Positions 26,864 to 40,635 of a stretch of 64,000 nt of DNA are shown piece after piece; position 1 is the first letter of the stretch; each line of letters begins with the position of its first letter. Below the pieces are notes generated by a model. It searched no databases. It saw only the letters and a list, made by a program, of their open reading frames with translations, and was not told where the DNA came from. The stretch is from Yuukianura sp. NJ FZ-2021. Its lineage: Eukaryota. Where the stretch lies: the NCBI GenBank assembly GCA_046563655.1, contig CM102287.1, forward strand, positions 6,324,001 through 6,388,000, read 5' to 3'. The translations under genes and the position numbers were made by a program.

Positions 26864-29800
26864 TTAAGTTTTTACAGCTCGTCGAATGTGTTCCGAATCG
26901 GGTATGAGTCCTGTCCAAAGCTCTGCGGCCCAAAGCGCTTGTTCAATTACAATATCTCGTCCAGTTACAACAGCTATTGCGGGACTCAGTTCTTCGTCTT
27001 CGGAGGCCATGTTCCCATACGCCAGTTTCACAAGTACTGCGCCATATTGGATTCGGAAGATTTTGTTCACAAATGCATTAGTACACATTCCGGAGTATCC
27101 TGGAGTGGTATCCACGATGACAGCAACTGGACAGTCTGCATTTGGTAGTGACTCTTCCTGCTTGTAAATTTTTAGGACCGTGCCAGTGTCTTCTTCCACG
27201 ATACTTGATTTCAAAAGTTCCTGCAACCGGGACTCCGTTCTGTTGTAAAGGTAGATTTGTTTGAAGCCAAATGTGTTGAGGGCGAAAAGTGCTGCTCTGG
27301 CAGTTCCTCCTGCTCCAATCAACATGGCACTTGAACTCGCGCATTCCTTTATATACAAAACTCGCTCCAAGCATTTCTGAATTCCTAGCCAATCGGTGTT
27401 ATCTCCGTGCAGTTTTCCATTCGGCTGGACAACAATGGTGTTTACTGCTCCAATGGCTTGAACTACTTGGGACACCGAATCCAGGAGAGGAATGATTGTC
27501 TGCTTGTGGGGTATTGTCACTGACCCACCGCCAAAATCAGGATCCCTGATGACCTTCCGGATTTCGTCCAAGTCATCTGTGTCTTTAATGGAATATTTGA
27601 AGGGAAGTCGGAAGTAGTCGAAATTCGTGTTGTGAATCAAGGGAGAGAGGCTGAAAAAAATAATTCGCTTAAATGTTTTGTTCGACACTTCATATTTAAA
27701 TCGTTAGAGATCGGTACCCATCGTAAACATTAACTTACGTGTAAGAAATGTTGTGGCCAAAAATGAAAAATTTCTTTGGAGTTATAATGTTCTGTTCGGT
27801 GAGTGCAGACAAGATTTCCTGACAAGTGAGTTGCGCTAGGTTCGAATTCTTGTCCATTTTGCGCAGTTCTTCATGTGTCACGGGCGTGAAAAAACGATTT
27901 TTGACTCGAGTAATCCTTCCTTCGACTCCAAAATTGAATGCGATTAATGGCAACTTTTCGGCACTTCTGGAATAGTATTCATCTGTGAACTTCTGGACGC
28001 TTAGGTTATGTTCTTCCGAAATTCCAGCTGACACCAACTGGAAAAACATGTTGAAATAAAAATTTACACTATGCTGTCTGGATTGGTGGAATTTAGGAGT
28101 ATAAAAATTAATATTGAACAATTACCTTAATTATATCTCCAATCGCTGCTGCTTTTTCTACCTTCGCTTGAATTTCACTTCCGCTCCATTCTATAGGCTG
28201 TAGGATGCTGTGATAGGACGCTATAATTCGAGACTTTTTGGAAGCTGCTTGTTTGACCTTGCTCAGTATGCTTGAGTTTAAGGAAATTTCAAGGTCAATG
28301 AATTCACAACCAAGTTTGACAGCATATTCCAAAATTTCAACCAACTTTGATTCTGTGACCTTCGACGGTAGCTGCCCGCCTTCTGCTGCTGACCTCACTG
28401 TAAATATGATTGGATGCTCCCCGATGACTTTCCGAATCCGGGTGACTTGCCTTGCCAAGTATTTTTTGAAACTTCTAAATCCAAAATCCGGTTCGGAATT
28501 CCACGCAACATCAACTCGTAACTCAACTGCTGCAGTACCGCTGATCCATTTTGGGAAGAACGTGAAGAATTGGAGTGACATCTTCCAGAAGCAGTGTTAG
28601 AAAGAACGAGCGGAACTCTAAACTGGGCATAACGTTCTGGAACAGCTTACCGTTGGCGTAGTTGACAATATGGAAGATAGAATTTACTGCCAAGGTTTGC
28701 GCTAGACCTGTACCATCTGCCTCGAATAAGTATGTGTAGTTTGACAACTTCTCCAGATCATGTAAAGACTCATTCATGGTTAGATCACTGATGATATGAA
28801 TCACAATTCCTTTAGCTTCTATCCATTCCGTAAGAAATGGCTTTCCGGAAGTTGCCATCCAGTGTTTCGACAGCGTAATGACTTTTCGCTTTTTCATGTC
28901 TTCTGATACCTCTGATATTTCTTCCAAGAAAGTCCAGTTCATAGCGTCTGCCAATTGGTTTGCTAGAGCGTTAACGTAAGGACCAATCAAAATGATCGAC
29001 GCTTCGTTGAGTTTTGCGGTAGGTGACTCACTGTGGCTTCTGTCCACGACTAGCGAATTTTGGGAGTTTGAATCAATTTCGATTTTTAGTTGCTTGAAAA
29101 TTTCGGATTTTGGAACGGGTGTTGCTTTGTTTCCAAATGGAAGCCCGAGTTGTGCCAGAAGTGTGGCCCTGATTTGATCGCTGGAGTTCTTCTTATCCAA
29201 TTGCATGATCCTAATCACATCTTCCGGAGTACAAGGTTGAAAAGATCCGAAGGCACCGACAATTCCCTCGGCTTCTAAAATGGACGTAGGCAAATTCGCT
29301 TTCCTTAAAACATTTTTCAGTCTGTCCACAATTTCTGGACATGCGCCAATCAAAGACGTTGCAATTTCCTGTTCTATCACCATTCCAACTGAAACTGCCT
29401 CACCGTGGAGTAGGTATGGATAATAGTGTTTTTCCAAAGCATGGCCCACGGTGTGACCAAAGTTCAGAAATTGACGCTGTGCCAAGTCTTCTCTGTCGTT
29501 GGTCGTAACGATAGCCTTGAATTTGATGGATTCAAACAAAAGTTGTAAAAGATTCAAATAAGTTGCAGAATCTTCAAAGTTGCGGTTCAGGAAAAGATGG
29601 CTGACTTTCTCAATGTTGGATTCCAGAAACTCGAAATCTTCTAAACTAGAAATTGCGCAAGTTTTGATAACTTCTGCCATTCCATTGAACAGTTCTCGTG
29701 GTGGTAGAGTTGTTAAATATGCGAGGTCAATGTAAATCCTGACTGGTTCATAAGTGGTTCCAATAAGATTCTTTCCAGCCGGAGTATCAATTCCATTTTT

Positions 29801-30691
29801 ACCACCAATTGAACTATCTGCCATGGCAAGTAACGTTGTAGGAAGTTGGATCAGCGGTACTCCTCGGAGGTACGTGGATGCAATGAATCCAACGAGGTCA
29901 CCTACTACACCGCCGCCCATTGCGATGAGACAAGTATCGCGGTTGAATGACTGTCCAATCAGAAAATCTTCGATTTTTGCAACCATTTCCCGACTTTTGC
30001 TGCTTTCTCCAGAAGGAATCACGTATTGAAGGATTTGTTTCTCGAATTGTTGGTCCCCTGTGATTGAATTAATAATTTTTACATAAATTGTAATAAAAAT
30101 CGTTCATTTGCGTACATTTGTAGTGATAGAAGCTGATGCAGAAGAAATGTTTATATTTAACAGTAAGCACATTTTAATTTCAGGAGTTCAACCTAAACGA
30201 GTGATTGAAGAAACTAAAATTACACGAAACATTCAGTGCAGCGAAAAAGTTTCAGATAATTTGTATGGCGTTAAATCTGCACTTGAATTTAAACGAATTG
30301 GGATTTGACTTTCACCGAGGTGAGGAGGTGACCCTAAACTTCAATCACCTTATTTTTAACTTTTTTCAATGCAATATGTCGTACTGCAATAATAGTTTCA
30401 CTAATTTTGAATTTTAAAATTGTTAGTTCGCCATCCGTTCTTTTTTTGTTAGGGAACATCGTCGGAAAATGTGTATTTACCTCTTTGTTGCAGGTTTTTA
30501 AAAGTTGCGAGGAAGCTCGGAAGATGCAATTTTGCCACATGCTCATCAGTGATAATTACAATGACTCGTACTTTTGGAACAGCATTCTTCAGTATGTCTT
30601 CTACTATAAATTCAGAGAAATCTCGTCCAATGTAAATGCTTTCCTTGCCGAAGATCTCGACTTGGAGCGGTTTCGTCCCACAAATATCCAT
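26864..30691 (-). CDS. ARO1: AROM-derived multifunctional enzyme, copy 1: DHQ synthase + degenerate shikimate kinase + type I DHQ dehydratase + shikimate dehydrogenase, no EPSP synthase (about 1075 aa; one +1 frameshift near 28546)
   Basis: Exons 30691-30481, 30057-28126, 28037-27739 and 27650-26864. [60 protein letters not shown]. DHQase [69 protein letters not shown]. Confidence 0.92.
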
Positions 30692-38789: not shown

Positions 38790-40635
38790 ATGGCAAGTCT
38801 TCCAAAACAAACTTGGAGAAACTTTCCAATTGCTCAGCAGCCAATGTGGCCCTGCCGAATCGAACTTCAGAATGCATCAGAATCTAGTAAGCTCAAAAAA
38901 TTTTGATTTCCAAACACTGCCTTTTTTTAAACAAACTTAACTTACAATTTTTATTTGTTTTCAGTCCGAAATCTTCCACCGCTCGTGAGTCCAATGGAAG
39001 TGCTGAGACTCCGGAAGCAACTGGCAAGCATTGCAAAAGATGGGACAGGATTCGTATTACAGGGAGGAGACTGCGCTGAACGTAAGTGTACTCTAAATAC
39101 AAATTTTGAAACTCAGCATTATTTCATGTGTTGAGGCTTTGACTAATGTCGTGAAACTAAATTTTAACTGCATTGTTCATAAAAGCCATCGATCCATTTC
39201 AGGTTTTTCTGACTGTCGTCCAGAAATGATTGAAACCAAAATCCGAGTCCTTTTGCAAATGGCTGGCGTTCTCAAGCATGCCACAGGAGAGCAATGCGTC
39301 GTAATTGCAAGAATTGCAGGGCAGTATGGCAAACCAAGGTCATCAGACCCAAAAACCGAAGGTAAAATTCCTAATTCAATTACTAACGATAAGTTACGCA
39401 CAAAAGTCACACTAAAATTGAACATGTTTATAAAACAATTATTGAAGTTTGTTTAAGTCCAGTTTAAAAAATTGTCTGTTCATGTTCTGCTAGATCCAAA
39501 AAAAATCTTTCGCGGAGACAACATTCACGGTTTTGACGTGAGCGATCGCCGCCAAAATCCACAGCGGCTCATCCAAGGCTACTTCCATTCCAGTGCAACG
39601 CTGAACTACATTCGAACGCTCCTCAAAGATGGGTTCGAAGACATTCCAGACTTTCCGCCATCTTGGGACATGCAATTCCTCAAGGACAATCACAAAGTTG
39701 CTTCCACAGACATCCAAACAGACATGCTCAGACAAGTCACGGACAACGCCCACAACTTTCGCTTGATCAAACAAAGCGAAGATGAAAAAGCTATGATCCA
39801 TATTTCACATGAAGCACTTTTGCTTGACTATGAAGATGCAATGACACGAGAAGTCGATGGCAAATTCTACAATTTGAGCGCTCCGTTCATTTGGATCGGA
39901 GATAGAACTCGACAGTTAGATCATGCGCACATTGAATACATCAGCCACATTGAGAATCCAGTTGGCATCAAAGTAGGCTTTATTATTAGTACACAACTTT
40001 CTTAAAATAAATTTCGAATTGAGTTTCAAATTTCAAAATTTTTCAAAGGTTGGACCAACCATGGAAGCCGAAGAGCTTCTCATGCTTCTGAAACTCATTT
40101 GGCCAAATCCAGAAAGAACTCCTGGAAAAGTGACGCTTATCACACGCTACGGTGCTTCCAAGGTACGAAATTTCAAAAATGAAATTTTTGGAAAATCGAC
40201 GCTTCAATTACTAATTTGACTGCAAATTTGTAGGTTGAAAAGCTTCTTCCCCGTCACATTGAAGCTGTTCAGTCAGCAGGGTACAAAGTCGTATGGTCAT
40301 GTGACCCATGTCACGGAAACACCCGTGTTTCGGCTGAAAGTGGCTTAAAAACCCGAGACTTTATGGACATCTACACCGAGATCCGGAAGTGTCTTGAAAT
40401 TCACAATGCCTATGGTAGTCGCCTGGGTGGGATCCACATTGAATGTACTGGCGAAGACGTCACGGAGTGTATTGGCGGTTGCGAAAATTTAACAGAATCG
40501 GATCTGCCACTTCGTTTTGAGTCCTACTGTGACCCGAGGCTGAACTATGTCCAGTCTATGGAACTTTCGTTGCTACTGGCATCCATTCTGTCTCAAGACA
40601 AAGTCCCGAAAATCCACGCCTTTTTGCAGGAATAG
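38790..40635 (+). CDS. Class II 3-deoxy-D-arabino-heptulosonate 7-phosphate (DAHP) synthase, 6 exons, 455 aa
   Basis: Exons 38790-38886, 38965-39081, 39203-39361, 39494-39972, 40049-40162 and 40234-40635 give an uninterrupted frame with WR..PIAQQP, LPPLV, QGGDCAE, RIAGQYGKPRS, FRGDN, SHEALLLDYE, WIGDRTRQLDHAH, NPVGIKVGP, LITRYGA, CDPCHGNT, GGIHIECTG and CDPRLN. Confidence 0.96.

What the first reader, a model, noticed from the sequence alone, without database searches (positions are those of the whole stretch)
26864..40635. Domesticated, truncated shikimate-pathway gene cluster in an animal genome: class II DAHP synthase head-to-head with an AROM-derived enzyme
Seen: a 6-exon class II DAHP synthase (+) and a 4-exon DHQ synthase/DHQ dehydratase/shikimate dehydrogenase fusion (-) are divergently oriented with start codons about 2 kb apart. 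They lie on gap-free sequence continuous with PACRG, FGFR and cuticle genes, and their GT-AG introns resemble those of the neighbours. Established: these enzymes catalyse steps 1-4 of the shikimate pathway (PEP + E4P to DAHP, DHQ, DHS, shikimate), which animals generally lack. The domain order and motifs ([63 protein letters not shown]) match what I recall of fungal AROM and fungal class II DAHP synthases. Inference: a horizontally acquired, probably fungal-derived two-gene module that makes a non-chorismate product such as shikimate, quinate, or DHS-derived gallate/protocatechuate for chemical defence, antioxidant use or cuticle tanning. I cannot confirm whether it has been described before.
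Basis: partly seen in the sequence, partly recalled or inferred. Interest (0 to 1): 0.95.

Follow-up and report, generated by a model that had tools for sequence, protein, structure and literature searches.

The report
Arthropod genome carries half shikimate pathway
An arthropod chromosome segment carries two intron-bearing genes of foreign origin that together encode the first four steps of the shikimate pathway, which animals are textbook-said to lack, although the larger gene is interrupted by frameshifts in both assembled copies.

Summary
The genes are real. A 6-exon class II DAHP synthase (38790-40635, +, 455 aa, open frame) lies head-to-head, 2,055 bp away, with a 4-exon AROM-derived gene (-). 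That gene keeps the DHQ synthase, type I dehydroquinase and shikimate dehydrogenase domains. It has lost EPSP synthase entirely and retains only a dead shikimate-kinase stub.

- A 100-N gap lies at 31134-31233.
- The AROM-like gene and a cuticle-like gene occur twice (97.4% identical). The repeat ends exactly at the gap edges, which suggests two uncollapsed haplotypes.
- Copy 1 has one frameshift and copy 2 has two.

Animal genes (V-ATPase H, Ig receptor kinases, TLDc, PACRG, CUB) flank the pair on both sides of the gap. The introns are host-like. DNA runs from two studies hold the locus.

Trees place the AROM-like gene inside fungi, sister to Neoconidiobolus; a non-fungal placement is rejected (AU p=0.024). 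The DAHP synthase is not fungal (AU p=0.006) and its donor is unresolved, so a single fungal two-gene transfer is not supported.

Unnamed relatives share the EPSPS-less architecture, so the truncation is old and conserved.

The likely function is host synthesis of shikimate or 3-dehydroshikimate. Expression and product are untested. Ten literature searches found no report of this.

The parts
38790..40635 (+). Class II DAHP synthase gene (CDS): 6 exons, 455 aa, open frame
   Evidence: Exons are 38790-38886, 38965-39081, 39203-39361, 39494-39972, 40049-40162 and 40234-40635, joined by 5 GT-AG introns of 71-132 bp. Exon ORFs hit Pfam PF01474. The protein keeps 111 of 112 columns that are invariant in 8 diverse class II DAHPS. 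The unnamed relative P0121 (63% identity) aligns without break across all 5 intron positions.
36735..38789 (.). Divergent intergenic region of 2,055 bp between the two start codons; candidate shared promoter (inferred)
   Evidence: Coordinates come from the gene models. GC is 0.34. Promoter function was not tested.
32915..36734 (-). AROM-derived gene, copy 2 (next to the DAHPS): DHQS, linker, dead SK remnant, DHQase I, SDH. It reads as 1,072 aa only if two extra bases are skipped
   Evidence: Exons are 36734-36524, 36100-34177, 34088-33790 and 33701-32915, with GT-AG introns of 423, 88 and 88 bp. The frameshifts are at 34806 and 35640, and there is a 9-bp in-frame deletion near 35068. As assembled it stops after 231 aa. 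Domain coordinates: DHQS 36734-35141, SK remnant 35059-34597, DHQase 34596-33828, SDH 33827-32918.
26864..30691 (-). AROM-derived gene, copy 1. It reads as 1,075 aa only if one extra base is skipped
   Evidence: Exons are 30691-30481, 30057-28126, 28037-27739 and 27650-26864. The frameshift is at 28546, and as assembled the protein stops after 581 aa. Pfam finds DHQ_synthase, DHQS_C, DHquinase_I, Shikimate_dh_N and Shikimate_DH. Domain coordinates: DHQS 30691-29099, SK remnant 29008-28547, DHQase 28545-27777, SDH 27776-26867.
28546..28546 (-). Extra base in copy 1 (frameshift between the SK remnant and DHQase)
   Evidence: It is a 1-bp indel against copy 2, in a 2-base run rather than a long homopolymer. 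Copy 2 is open across this point (ORF 34159-34824).
34806..34806 (-). Extra base in copy 2 (frameshift inside the SK remnant)
   Evidence: Seen. In Logan contigs one base is left out at 34808 in 138.2 of 194.1 depth (X1), 206.2 of 206.2 (X2) and 33.6 of 33.6 (X3), so most contigs carry the unshifted form (table 4).
35640..35640 (-). Extra base in copy 2 (frameshift inside DHQS)
   Evidence: Seen. Copy 1 is open across this point (ORF 28523-30103). The rows that were shown give no read evidence here.
31134..31233 (.). Scaffold gap of 100 N. The repeat ends exactly at both of its edges
   Evidence: The N run and the self-BLAST are: 26841-31133 matches 32892-37169, and 25813-26396 matches 31234-31821.
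25813..26818 (+). Ala/Pro/Val-rich cuticle-like gene, first copy (part of the duplicated unit)
   Evidence: ORF translations show AAPA/AAPV-type repeats. It is 95-99% identical to 31234-32206.
31234..32206 (+). Cuticle-like gene, second copy
32207..32891 (.). 685-bp insertion present only beside copy 2
   Evidence: Contigs in X1, X2 and X3 skip 32206->32892 and carry 22 other letters there, which is the copy-1 form; X4 skips 32206->32894 (26 other letters). Both forms therefore exist in the reads (tables 5 and 5c).

Best explanation
A pancrustacean arthropod carries two foreign-derived genes, now host-integrated and intron-bearing, arranged head-to-head.

- One gene is a class II DAHP synthase (PEP + erythrose-4-phosphate -> DAHP).
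- The other descends from a fungal pentafunctional AROM gene. It has lost the whole EPSP-synthase domain and the active site of shikimate kinase. It keeps DHQ synthase, type I dehydroquinase and shikimate dehydrogenase (DAHP -> DHQ -> 3-dehydroshikimate -> shikimate).

Together they encode steps 1-4 of the shikimate pathway and stop exactly where the lost domains would take over. The inferred product is therefore shikimate or 3-dehydroshikimate (or a metabolite derived from one of them), not chorismate made by this protein.

The two genes came from different donors: the AROM part from a fungus near Entomophthoromycotina, the DAHPS from an unresolved non-fungal eukaryote.

The apparent tandem duplicate is most likely two haplotypes that the assembler failed to merge at a scaffold gap.

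Shown: domain content, intron structure, linkage to host genes, fungal placement of the AROM part, non-fungal placement of the DAHPS, conservation of the truncated architecture in other organisms, and purifying selection between the two copies.

Inferred: enzyme activity, co-regulation from the shared 2-kb region, the product, and that the frameshifts are assembly or haplotype errors or very recent.
For: Domains:
- Pfam hits.
- Columns conserved in at least 95% of 68 AROM reference rows are kept in 65 of 71 (DHQS), 14 of 17 (DHQase) and 8 of 9 (SDH). Only 8 of 71 are kept for EPSPS (47 are gaps) and 4 of 23 for SK (15 are gaps).
- Alignment to fungal AROMs shows a roughly 430-aa EPSPS deletion and a 3-residue deletion that removes the kinase P-loop.
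- Pfam SKI does not match the remnant even at E<=10. hhalign still links its first 28 columns to SK (probability 91%, E 1e-6).
- The DAHPS keeps 111 of 112 invariant columns and has an open frame.

Integration:
- Animal genes lie on both sides of the gap on the same contigs.
- Intron sizes of 71-132 and 88 bp compare with about 78-90 bp in the neighbouring V-ATPase H gene.
- GC is 43-47%, against 46% for the host gene.
- Logan contigs of 4 runs from 2 studies cover 29-30 of 30 bins.

Origin:
- AROM trees and AU test, p 0.024.
- DAHPS trees and AU test, p 0.006.

Conservation:
- P0367 (43% identity, from a Logan genomic contig of 8.5 kb) runs colinearly from DHQS into the P-loop-less remnant without EPSPS.
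- P0368 fuses DHQS directly to DHQase.
- P0121 is a 63%-identical DAHPS on an mRNA-like 1.9-kb contig.

Selection: copy 1 against copy 2 gives dN/dS 0.37, with 41 nonsynonymous of 73 differences against 77% expected under neutrality (binomial p 6e-5).

Haplotype reading of the duplication: the homology ends exactly at both gap edges.
Against: - Both assembled copies of the AROM-like gene are frameshifted, one with 1 and the other with 2 extra bases, and not in long homopolymers.
- The neighbouring V-ATPase H gene needs no frameshift, so the assembly is not generally error-ridden.
- In run X1, contigs totalling 56 of 194 depth carry the shifted form at 34806-34808, so at least that frameshift may be a real allele.
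- There is no expression evidence for this locus.
- Six of 71 highly conserved DHQS columns are changed. The SDH_C Pfam score (22.7) is below its cut-off of 25.8.
- The rest of the genome could not be searched. Downstream enzymes or symbionts are therefore unknown, and the product is pure inference.
- The sources of P0367, P0368 and P0121 are unnamed, so they may not be animals.
- The AU groups were delimited after seeing the trees and names.
Confidence: 0.6

Rival explanations
1. Decaying relic. The AROM-derived gene was acquired and used in the past but is now a pseudogene in this species. Both alleles or copies really are frameshifted, and only the DAHPS ORF is still intact.
For: There are frameshifts at 28546, 34806 and 35640 in short 2-base runs. 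The host V-ATPase H gene on the same scaffold is clean. Part of the X1 depth (56 of 194) carries the shifted form at 34806-34808.
Against: Each of the three frameshift positions is intact in the other copy. X2 and X3 contigs show only the unshifted form at 34808. dN/dS between the copies is 0.37, p 6e-5. Conserved catalytic-domain columns are retained. The partner DAHPS is fully intact at 111 of 112 invariant columns. The frameshifts lie in the zone of overlapping contig ends, where consensus quality is typically poor (inference).
Confidence: 0.2
2. Part of a complete pathway. Shikimate kinase, EPSP synthase and chorismate synthase are encoded elsewhere, either in the same genome or in an obligate symbiont. 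The module then feeds chorismate and aromatic amino-acid synthesis rather than ending at shikimate.
For: The truncation point coincides exactly with the shikimate -> shikimate-3-phosphate hand-over. Tyrosine-supplying insect symbionts are reported to keep aroK, aroA and aroC but to lack aroE, with the missing activity unidentified (passages of PMC8113238).
Against: No such genes lie in the 64-kb window; none of the 134 flanking ORFs matched them in Pfam. The genome is not held. There is no evidence that this host has a symbiont.
Confidence: 0.12
3. The AROM-derived protein is not an enzyme. It would be a ligand-sensing or regulatory protein, as recalled for the fungal quinate-cluster regulators that descend from AROM halves.
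For: AROM-derived truncated proteins with dead domains exist in fungi (recalled, not tested here). The SK part here is dead.
Against: Conserved columns of the three enzyme domains are kept at 65 of 71, 14 of 17 and 8 of 9. It is paired with an intact enzyme that makes its substrate.
Confidence: 0.04
4. Contamination or chimeric assembly with fungal or protist DNA.
For: A scaffold gap lies inside the span. Best protein hits are microbial eukaryotes.
Against: Each side of the gap joins an AROM-like copy to animal genes on uninterrupted sequence. The introns and GC are host-like. Identity to any named microbe is only 44-49% (AROM-like) and 37-51% (DAHPS exon 4). Contigs from two studies cover the locus and its flanks up to PACRG.
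Confidence: 0.02
5. Vertical inheritance from the unicellular ancestors of animals. Capsaspora, Pigoraptor, Corallochytrium and Ichthyophonus have these genes.
For: Holozoan class II DAHPS and AROM exist and appear among the hits.
Against: The AROM-like clade is separate from the holozoan-plus-oomycete clade, and uniting them costs 51 lnL units (p-AU 0.024). The DAHPS lies outside the holozoa-plus-fungi clade. The host is a derived pancrustacean, so very many independent losses would be required.
Confidence: 0.02

Closest known systems
Fungal pentafunctional AROM polypeptide (Aro1)
   Same: It has the same domain order and is clearly homologous in DHQS, DHQase I and SDH. Identity to Glomus cerebriforme is 49% over the DHQS part and 34% over the C-terminal part. 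The window's gene nests among fungal AROMs beside Neoconidiobolus thromboides.
   Different: EPSP synthase is deleted outright and shikimate kinase is reduced to a P-loop-less stub. The gene sits in an arthropod genome with 3 spliceosomal introns. Only 3 of the 5 activities can remain.
Class II (plant/microbial type) DAHP synthases, PF01474
   Same: The Pfam match runs over the full length and 111 of 112 invariant columns are kept.
   Different: It belongs to a long-branched clade of 4 sequences (window, P0121, P0128, P0144) outside sampled fungi, holozoans, oomycetes and bacteria. With oomycete sequences it shares a 2-residue insertion and a Cys in place of Met in the CDP-x-HGNT stretch (alignment and protein). 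It is encoded in an animal genome with 5 introns.
Shikimate-pathway genes reported in the sea anemone Nematostella vectensis (Starcevic et al. 2008)
   Same: It is a claim of shikimate-pathway genes in an animal genome acquired by horizontal transfer. I saw it only as cited in passages of PMC4237138; I did not read the original paper.
   Different: Those genes are described there as bacterial (Tenacibaculum-like) in origin, in a cnidarian that hosts such a bacterium. Here the genes are of eukaryotic origin and intron-bearing, lie in an arthropod, form a divergent pair, and include a remodelled AROM.
[quoted passage not shown]
   Same: It is a fused DHQase I plus SDH that converts DHQ to shikimate. 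Some members are reported to make gallate from 3-dehydroshikimate (abstracts of PMC6797610 and PMC3057006 in the listing).
   Different: The window's protein also carries DHQS and an SK stub, and it is of fungal AROM descent, not plant descent.
Fungal carotenoid-biosynthesis genes transferred to aphids, mites and gall midges
   Same: It is an example of biosynthetic genes of fungal origin domesticated in arthropod genomes. This is recalled; one related preprint appeared only in a search listing (10.1101/2025.03.24.644864).
   Different: It concerns a different pathway. Here the two partners appear to come from two different donors and build a partial primary-metabolic pathway.

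Membership tests
Class II DAHP synthase (Pfam PF01474) | Full-length match to the family profile above the curated cut-off | tested here: met
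   Five exon ORFs match profile positions 29-438 of 438. Scores are 35-160 bits against a cut-off of 27.
Class II DAHP synthase (Pfam PF01474) | Residues invariant across diverse members, including those I recall as metal and PEP ligands | tested here: met
   111 of 112 columns invariant in 8 diverse members are kept; the one change is R->S at residue 273. The assignment of ligand roles is recalled, not tested.
Class II DAHP synthase (Pfam PF01474) | Catalytic activity (PEP + E4P -> DAHP) | not testable with these tools
   Needs an enzyme assay or complementation.
Pentafunctional AROM polypeptide | Five domains in the order DHQS-EPSPS-SK-DHQase-SDH | tested here: not met
   There is no EPSP_synthase or SKI Pfam hit. 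In the EPSPS region 47 of 71 conserved columns are gaps, and only 4 of 23 SK columns are kept. The protein is derived from AROM but is not a member.
Pentafunctional AROM polypeptide | Phylogenetic descent from AROM genes | tested here: met
   It nests among fungal AROMs, sister to Neoconidiobolus at 98/99 support. It aligns colinearly over 1,065 residues with the DHQS-SK-DHQase-SDH protein P0033.
3-dehydroquinate synthase (PF01761 + PF24621) | Both Pfam domains above cut-off, and conserved columns retained | tested here: met
   Scores are 146 and 107 bits. 65 of 71 conserved columns are kept.
Type I 3-dehydroquinase (PF01487) | Profile match, with the Schiff-base Lys and general-base His positions (roles recalled) | tested here: met
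   Two exon pieces cover profile positions 24-230 at 98.6 and 46.7 bits. 14 of 17 conserved columns are kept. The Lys and His columns align with those of fungal AROMs.
Shikimate dehydrogenase (PF08501, PF01488, PF18317) | Substrate-binding and NADP-binding domains above cut-off | tested here: met
   Shikimate_dh_N scores 74.1 (cut-off 27) and Shikimate_DH 27.5 (cut-off 24.3). SDH_C scores 22.7, below its cut-off of 25.8. 8 of 9 conserved columns are kept.
Shikimate kinase (PF01202) | Walker A P-loop and a profile match | tested here: not met
   There is no SKI hit at E<=10. The P-loop is removed by a 3-residue deletion. Only 28 N-terminal columns remain recognisable (hhalign probability 91%).
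Horizontally transferred gene integrated in an animal genome | Physical linkage to host genes, spliceosomal introns, and nesting within a donor clade | tested here: met
   Linkage is shown, and introns. Nesting within a donor clade is shown for the AROM part. The DAHPS donor is unresolved.
Horizontally transferred gene integrated in an animal genome | Expression as spliced mRNA in the host | not testable with these tools
   No RNA run could be laid on the locus.

The most novel reading that the evidence does not exclude
An arthropod lineage built its own 'front half' of the shikimate pathway from two separate eukaryote-to-animal transfers: an entomophthoralean-like fungal AROM, trimmed to DHQS-DHQase-SDH, and a non-fungal, oomycete-like class II DAHP synthase. 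The two genes became a divergently transcribed pair. The host then makes shikimate or 3-dehydroshikimate itself. It either hands this to a symbiont that keeps only the back half of the pathway (this would be the unidentified 'missing aroE' activity noted for tyrosine-supplying insect symbionts) or uses it for gallate- or protocatechuate-type phenolics for cuticle or defence.
Probability: 0.3. Interest if true: 0.9.

Novelty: new variant of a known kind. Interest (0 to 1): 0.8.

Why it matters
Textbooks state that animals lack the shikimate pathway; this underlies the essentiality of aromatic amino acids and the claimed animal safety of glyphosate. A host-encoded, conserved module for steps 1-4 in an arthropod would be a clear exception.

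It would also be an example of a pathway segment assembled from two different donors.

It makes an open question testable: who supplies the shikimate dehydrogenase step (or shikimate itself) in insect-symbiont tyrosine provisioning, which PMC8113238 says is unidentified.

The precise excision of EPSPS, the glyphosate target, and the death of the kinase show where the animal's own contribution to the pathway ends.

Tried and rejected
- Whole-genome search of the window's own assembly: no genome is held. I could not look for SK, EPSPS, CS, DHS dehydratase or further copies.
- RNA evidence: no RNA holder was listed among the 5 runs, so expression is untested.
- Read laying used contigs only and its tables were truncated. 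It gives nothing on the frameshifts at 28546 and 35640, and it does not decide between one and two copies.
- Earlier scan notes: none for this genome. One unrelated bacterial DAHPS note turned up by sequence. Searches returned nothing.
- ESM Atlas search returned only bacterial DHQS clusters, which is uninformative.
- MAFFT --auto on 71 full-length AROMs timed out. The 'careful' tree on 71 rows did not finish in two tries. I replaced it with a 30-row careful tree.
- The first DAHPS tree run timed out and finished on the second run.
- The metagenome scan with P0121 gave only its own 1.9-kb contig and one partial 47%-identity relative, with no genomic context.
- Ten literature searches found no report of DAHPS plus AROM-derived genes in an arthropod. 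PMC4943190 mentions only chorismate mutase transfers. PMC5897657 had nothing relevant. Subscription journals are not covered.
- Rejected the idea that the Chytriomyces EPSPS-less protein P0033 is a close relative: it groups with ordinary chytrid AROMs.
- Rejected the idea that the assembly is generally full of indel errors: V-ATPase H needs no frameshift.

Full report
WHAT IS THERE

- On the plus strand, five ORF pieces between 38.9 and 40.6 kb match the class II DAHP synthase family PF01474, covering profile positions 29-438.
- On the minus strand, ORFs match DHQ_synthase plus DHQS_C, DHquinase_I (in two pieces), Shikimate_dh_N, Shikimate_DH and, below cut-off, SDH_C.
- In all, 9 of the 11 pieces scanned had hits. 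The two without hits are the first exons.

Using the best database relatives as guides, I built splice models in scripts.
- The DAHPS has 6 exons (38790-38886, 38965-39081, 39203-39361, 39494-39972, 40049-40162, 40234-40635), five GT-AG introns of 71-132 bp, 455 aa and an open frame.
- The fusion gene has 4 exons and GT-AG introns of 423, 88 and 88 bp.
- The two ATGs (36734 on the minus strand, 38790 on the plus strand) are 2,055 bp apart.

The stated span is not gap-free. A run of 100 N lies at 31134-31233.

The AROM-like gene is present twice.
- The copies are 26841-31133 and 32892-37169, 97.4% identical over 4,296 bp, with 92 substitutions and 11 indels.
- An Ala/Pro/Val-rich cuticle-like gene is also duplicated (25813-26818 = 31234-32206).
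- A 685-bp insertion (32207-32891) lies beside the second copy only.

Neither copy is intact as assembled.
- Copy 1 has an extra base at 28546 and stops after 581 aa.
- Copy 2 has extra bases at 34806 and 35640, plus a 9-bp in-frame deletion, and stops after 231 aa.
- Each of the three sites is open in the other copy.

The repeat ends exactly at both edges of the N gap: 31133 aligns to 37169, and 31234 aligns to 25813. That is what two overlapping contig ends from diverged haplotypes look like. A true tandem duplication would have no reason to break precisely at the gap. I therefore read the 'duplication' as most likely one gene seen as two alleles. This is inference; the reads I could lay do not settle it.

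IS IT REALLY IN AN ANIMAL GENOME?

Of 134 flanking ORFs of at least 75 aa, 18 matched Pfam. All 18 matched animal-type families:
- V-ATPase subunit H (1.7-3.4 kb)
- Ig domains plus tyrosine kinase (11.0-13.2 kb and 44.2-47.9 kb)
- TLDc (23.2-23.7 kb)
- ParcG (42.0-42.9 kb)
- CUB (49.5-50.1 kb)

Each side of the gap joins an AROM-like copy to such genes on uninterrupted sequence.

A V-ATPase H exon is 73% identical to beetle and fly proteins and 67-72% identical to crustacean ones. Unnamed environmental sequences reach 78-85%. The host is therefore a pancrustacean arthropod without a close named relative in that database.

V-ATPase H is split by introns of about 78-90 bp and needs no frameshift. 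The foreign genes have similar introns, AT-rich at 22-32% GC. Their coding GC is 43-47%, against 46% for V-ATPase H.

Five DNA runs from two studies, under two coded organism labels, hold the locus.
- Contigs of the four runs laid cover 29-30 of 30 bins from the cuticle gene to the receptor kinase.
- Both the with-insertion and the without-insertion junctions are present.
- At 34808 most contigs lack the extra base: 138.2 of 194.1 depth in X1, and all depth in X2 and X3.

Contamination or a chimeric join is thus very unlikely.

ANATOMY OF THE FUSION PROTEIN

Read through its frameshift, copy 1 gives 1,075 aa. The parts are DHQS 1-390, linker 391-420, remnant 421-574, DHQase 575-801 and SDH 802-1075.

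I took the columns conserved in at least 95% of 68 reference AROM rows and counted how many the window keeps:
- DHQS: 65 of 71
- DHQase: 14 of 17
- SDH: 8 of 9
- EPSPS: 8 of 71 (47 are gaps)
- SK: 4 of 23 (15 are gaps)

The alignment shows that the roughly 430-residue EPSPS block is simply absent. The kinase P-loop is removed by a 3-residue deletion.

Pfam SKI does not see the remnant even at E<=10. A profile-profile comparison still links its first 28 columns to the N-terminus of shikimate kinase (probability 91%, E 1e-6). The protein also aligns colinearly over 1,065 residues with the DHQS-SK-DHQase-SDH protein P0033.

The DAHPS keeps 111 of 112 columns that are invariant among 8 diverse class II enzymes.

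Which residues are catalytic is recalled knowledge, not tested here.

CONSERVATION AND SELECTION

A HMMER scan of 1.84 billion representatives gave as best hit P0367.
- It is 462 aa, from an 8.5-kb Logan contig, with E 3e-105.
- It runs colinearly from DHQS into a P-loop-less remnant with no EPSPS, at 43% identity.

The next hit, P0368, fuses DHQS directly to DHQase with neither EPSPS nor SK. It shares derived sequence features with the window.

For the DAHPS the best hit, P0121 (63% identity), lies on a 1.9-kb contig with about 200 nt of upstream and 340 nt of downstream non-coding sequence and AATAAA motifs. It is continuous across all five of the window's intron positions. This is consistent with a spliced mRNA of a relative, though it does not prove it.

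The truncated architecture is thus old and maintained in more than one organism. The sources of these relatives are unnamed.

Between the two window copies dN/dS is 0.37. Of 73 coding differences, 41 are nonsynonymous, against 77% expected under neutrality (p 6e-5). Divergence is patchy, from 0 differences in the last 600 bp to 39 differences in 600 bp around the DHQS C-terminus and linker.

ORIGIN

AROM part:
- All hits that carry an organism name are fungi. The best is Glomus cerebriforme at 49% identity.
- In a 71-row tree (833 columns), the window, P0367 and P0368 form a clade sister to Neoconidiobolus thromboides. The named non-fungal AROMs (Capsaspora, Ichthyophonus, Bremia) fall in a separate clade with 100% support.
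- A 30-row tree with ultrafast bootstrap gives the same result: 100/97, 100/98 and 98/99.
- Forcing the window clade together with the non-fungal sequences costs 51 log-likelihood units (p-AU 0.024).

DAHPS part:
- The window and P0121 group with two unnamed sequences (P0128, P0144) on a long branch. This clade lies outside the fungi-plus-holozoa clade, the oomycetes and the bacteria, in both a 121-row and a 33-row tree.
- Forcing it together with fungi is rejected (p-AU 0.006).
- With oomycete sequences it shares a two-residue insertion and a Cys-for-Met change in a conserved motif. In the unrooted tree it attaches next to the oomycetes with only 87/88 support. I treat the donor as unresolved.

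Caveats:
- The groups tested were delimited after seeing the trees.
- The alignment for the AROM tree was a fast one.
- Only one entomophthoralean sequence was available.
- Long branches are involved for the DAHPS.

The pair was probably assembled in the recipient lineage rather than transferred as a unit. Vertical descent from holozoan ancestors is not supported.

FUNCTION

The gene content gives PEP + E4P -> DAHP -> DHQ -> 3-dehydroshikimate -> shikimate. The loss of exactly the next two activities argues that this protein's contribution ends there.

What happens next is inference only. There are three options.
1. The product is a shikimate- or DHS-level end metabolite, or a simple phenolic derived from DHS.
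2. It is handed to a symbiont or to other host genes that hold the back half of the pathway. Passages of PMC8113238 state that several tyrosine-supplying insect symbionts lack aroE and that the replacing enzyme is unidentified. This makes the option testable, but nothing here shows that this host has such a symbiont.
3. The gene is decaying.

Neither N-terminus carries an extension relative to the fungal or protist homologues in the alignments. I infer that the proteins are cytosolic.

NOVELTY

Ten full-text searches found no report of a DAHPS plus AROM-derived pair in an arthropod. Subscription journals are not covered by that library.

The nearest published claim I saw is the Nematostella case, described in passages of PMC4237138 as bacterial in origin. 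A review of arthropod horizontal transfer mentions only chorismate mutase (passages of PMC4943190).

VERDICT

The finding is a real, integrated, foreign-derived half-pathway in an arthropod, and I could not find it described. Three caveats are serious: frameshifts in both assembled copies, no expression data, and an unknown product.

Noticed in passing
window 25813-37169 (gap 31134-31233): The 5-6 kb repeat (cuticle-like gene plus AROM-like gene) ends exactly at both edges of the 100-N gap. This looks like two uncollapsed haplotype contig ends rather than a biological tandem duplication.
   Followed up: partly
window 32152-33528: In run X4 (the second study) depth here is 30-62, against about 3-7 elsewhere. 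One 1,131-bp contig (depth 48.8, about 8% different) spans part of the 685-bp insertion and the 3' end of the SDH exon. It may be a repeated element or a diverged extra copy in that organism. Unexplained.
   Followed up: no
P0033 and its cluster (Chytriomyces spp.; 5 members of 1231-1232 aa): These chytrid AROM proteins lack the EPSP synthase domain but keep an intact kinase P-loop, and they group with ordinary chytrid AROMs. This is either an independent loss of EPSPS or a recurrent gene-model artefact.
   Followed up: partly
P0368 (655 aa, unnamed, 2.5-kb contig): DHQS is fused directly to type I DHQase with neither EPSPS nor SK. It branches as sister to the pair formed by the window's protein and P0367, and is thus a second, more extreme trimmed form of AROM in an unknown organism.
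   Followed up: partly
window 11000-13225 (+) and 44229-47865 (-): Two Ig-domain receptor tyrosine kinase genes (FGFR-like) flank the region in opposite orientation. No DNA-level similarity between them was found in the self-BLAST.
   Followed up: no
window 51863-53746 (-), 57591-58664 (-), 15555-17057 (-): There are long Gln/Pro/Gly-rich or Ser/Thr-rich ORFs without Pfam hits. The one at 52688-53746 begins with a stretch resembling the chitin-binding cuticle-protein consensus (resemblance recalled, not tested). The neighbourhood seems rich in structural or cuticular genes.
   Followed up: no
window 20609-22074 (-): Two adjoining ORFs (303 and 191 aa) have a leucine-rich, F-box/LRR-like look and no Pfam hit at E<=0.001.
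   Followed up: no
L002 (metagenome contig, 1,503 bp): A partial class II DAHPS N-terminus (47% identical to P0121) loses its frame after about 130 residues, which could mark an intron. It may be another eukaryotic relative; there is no further context.
   Followed up: no
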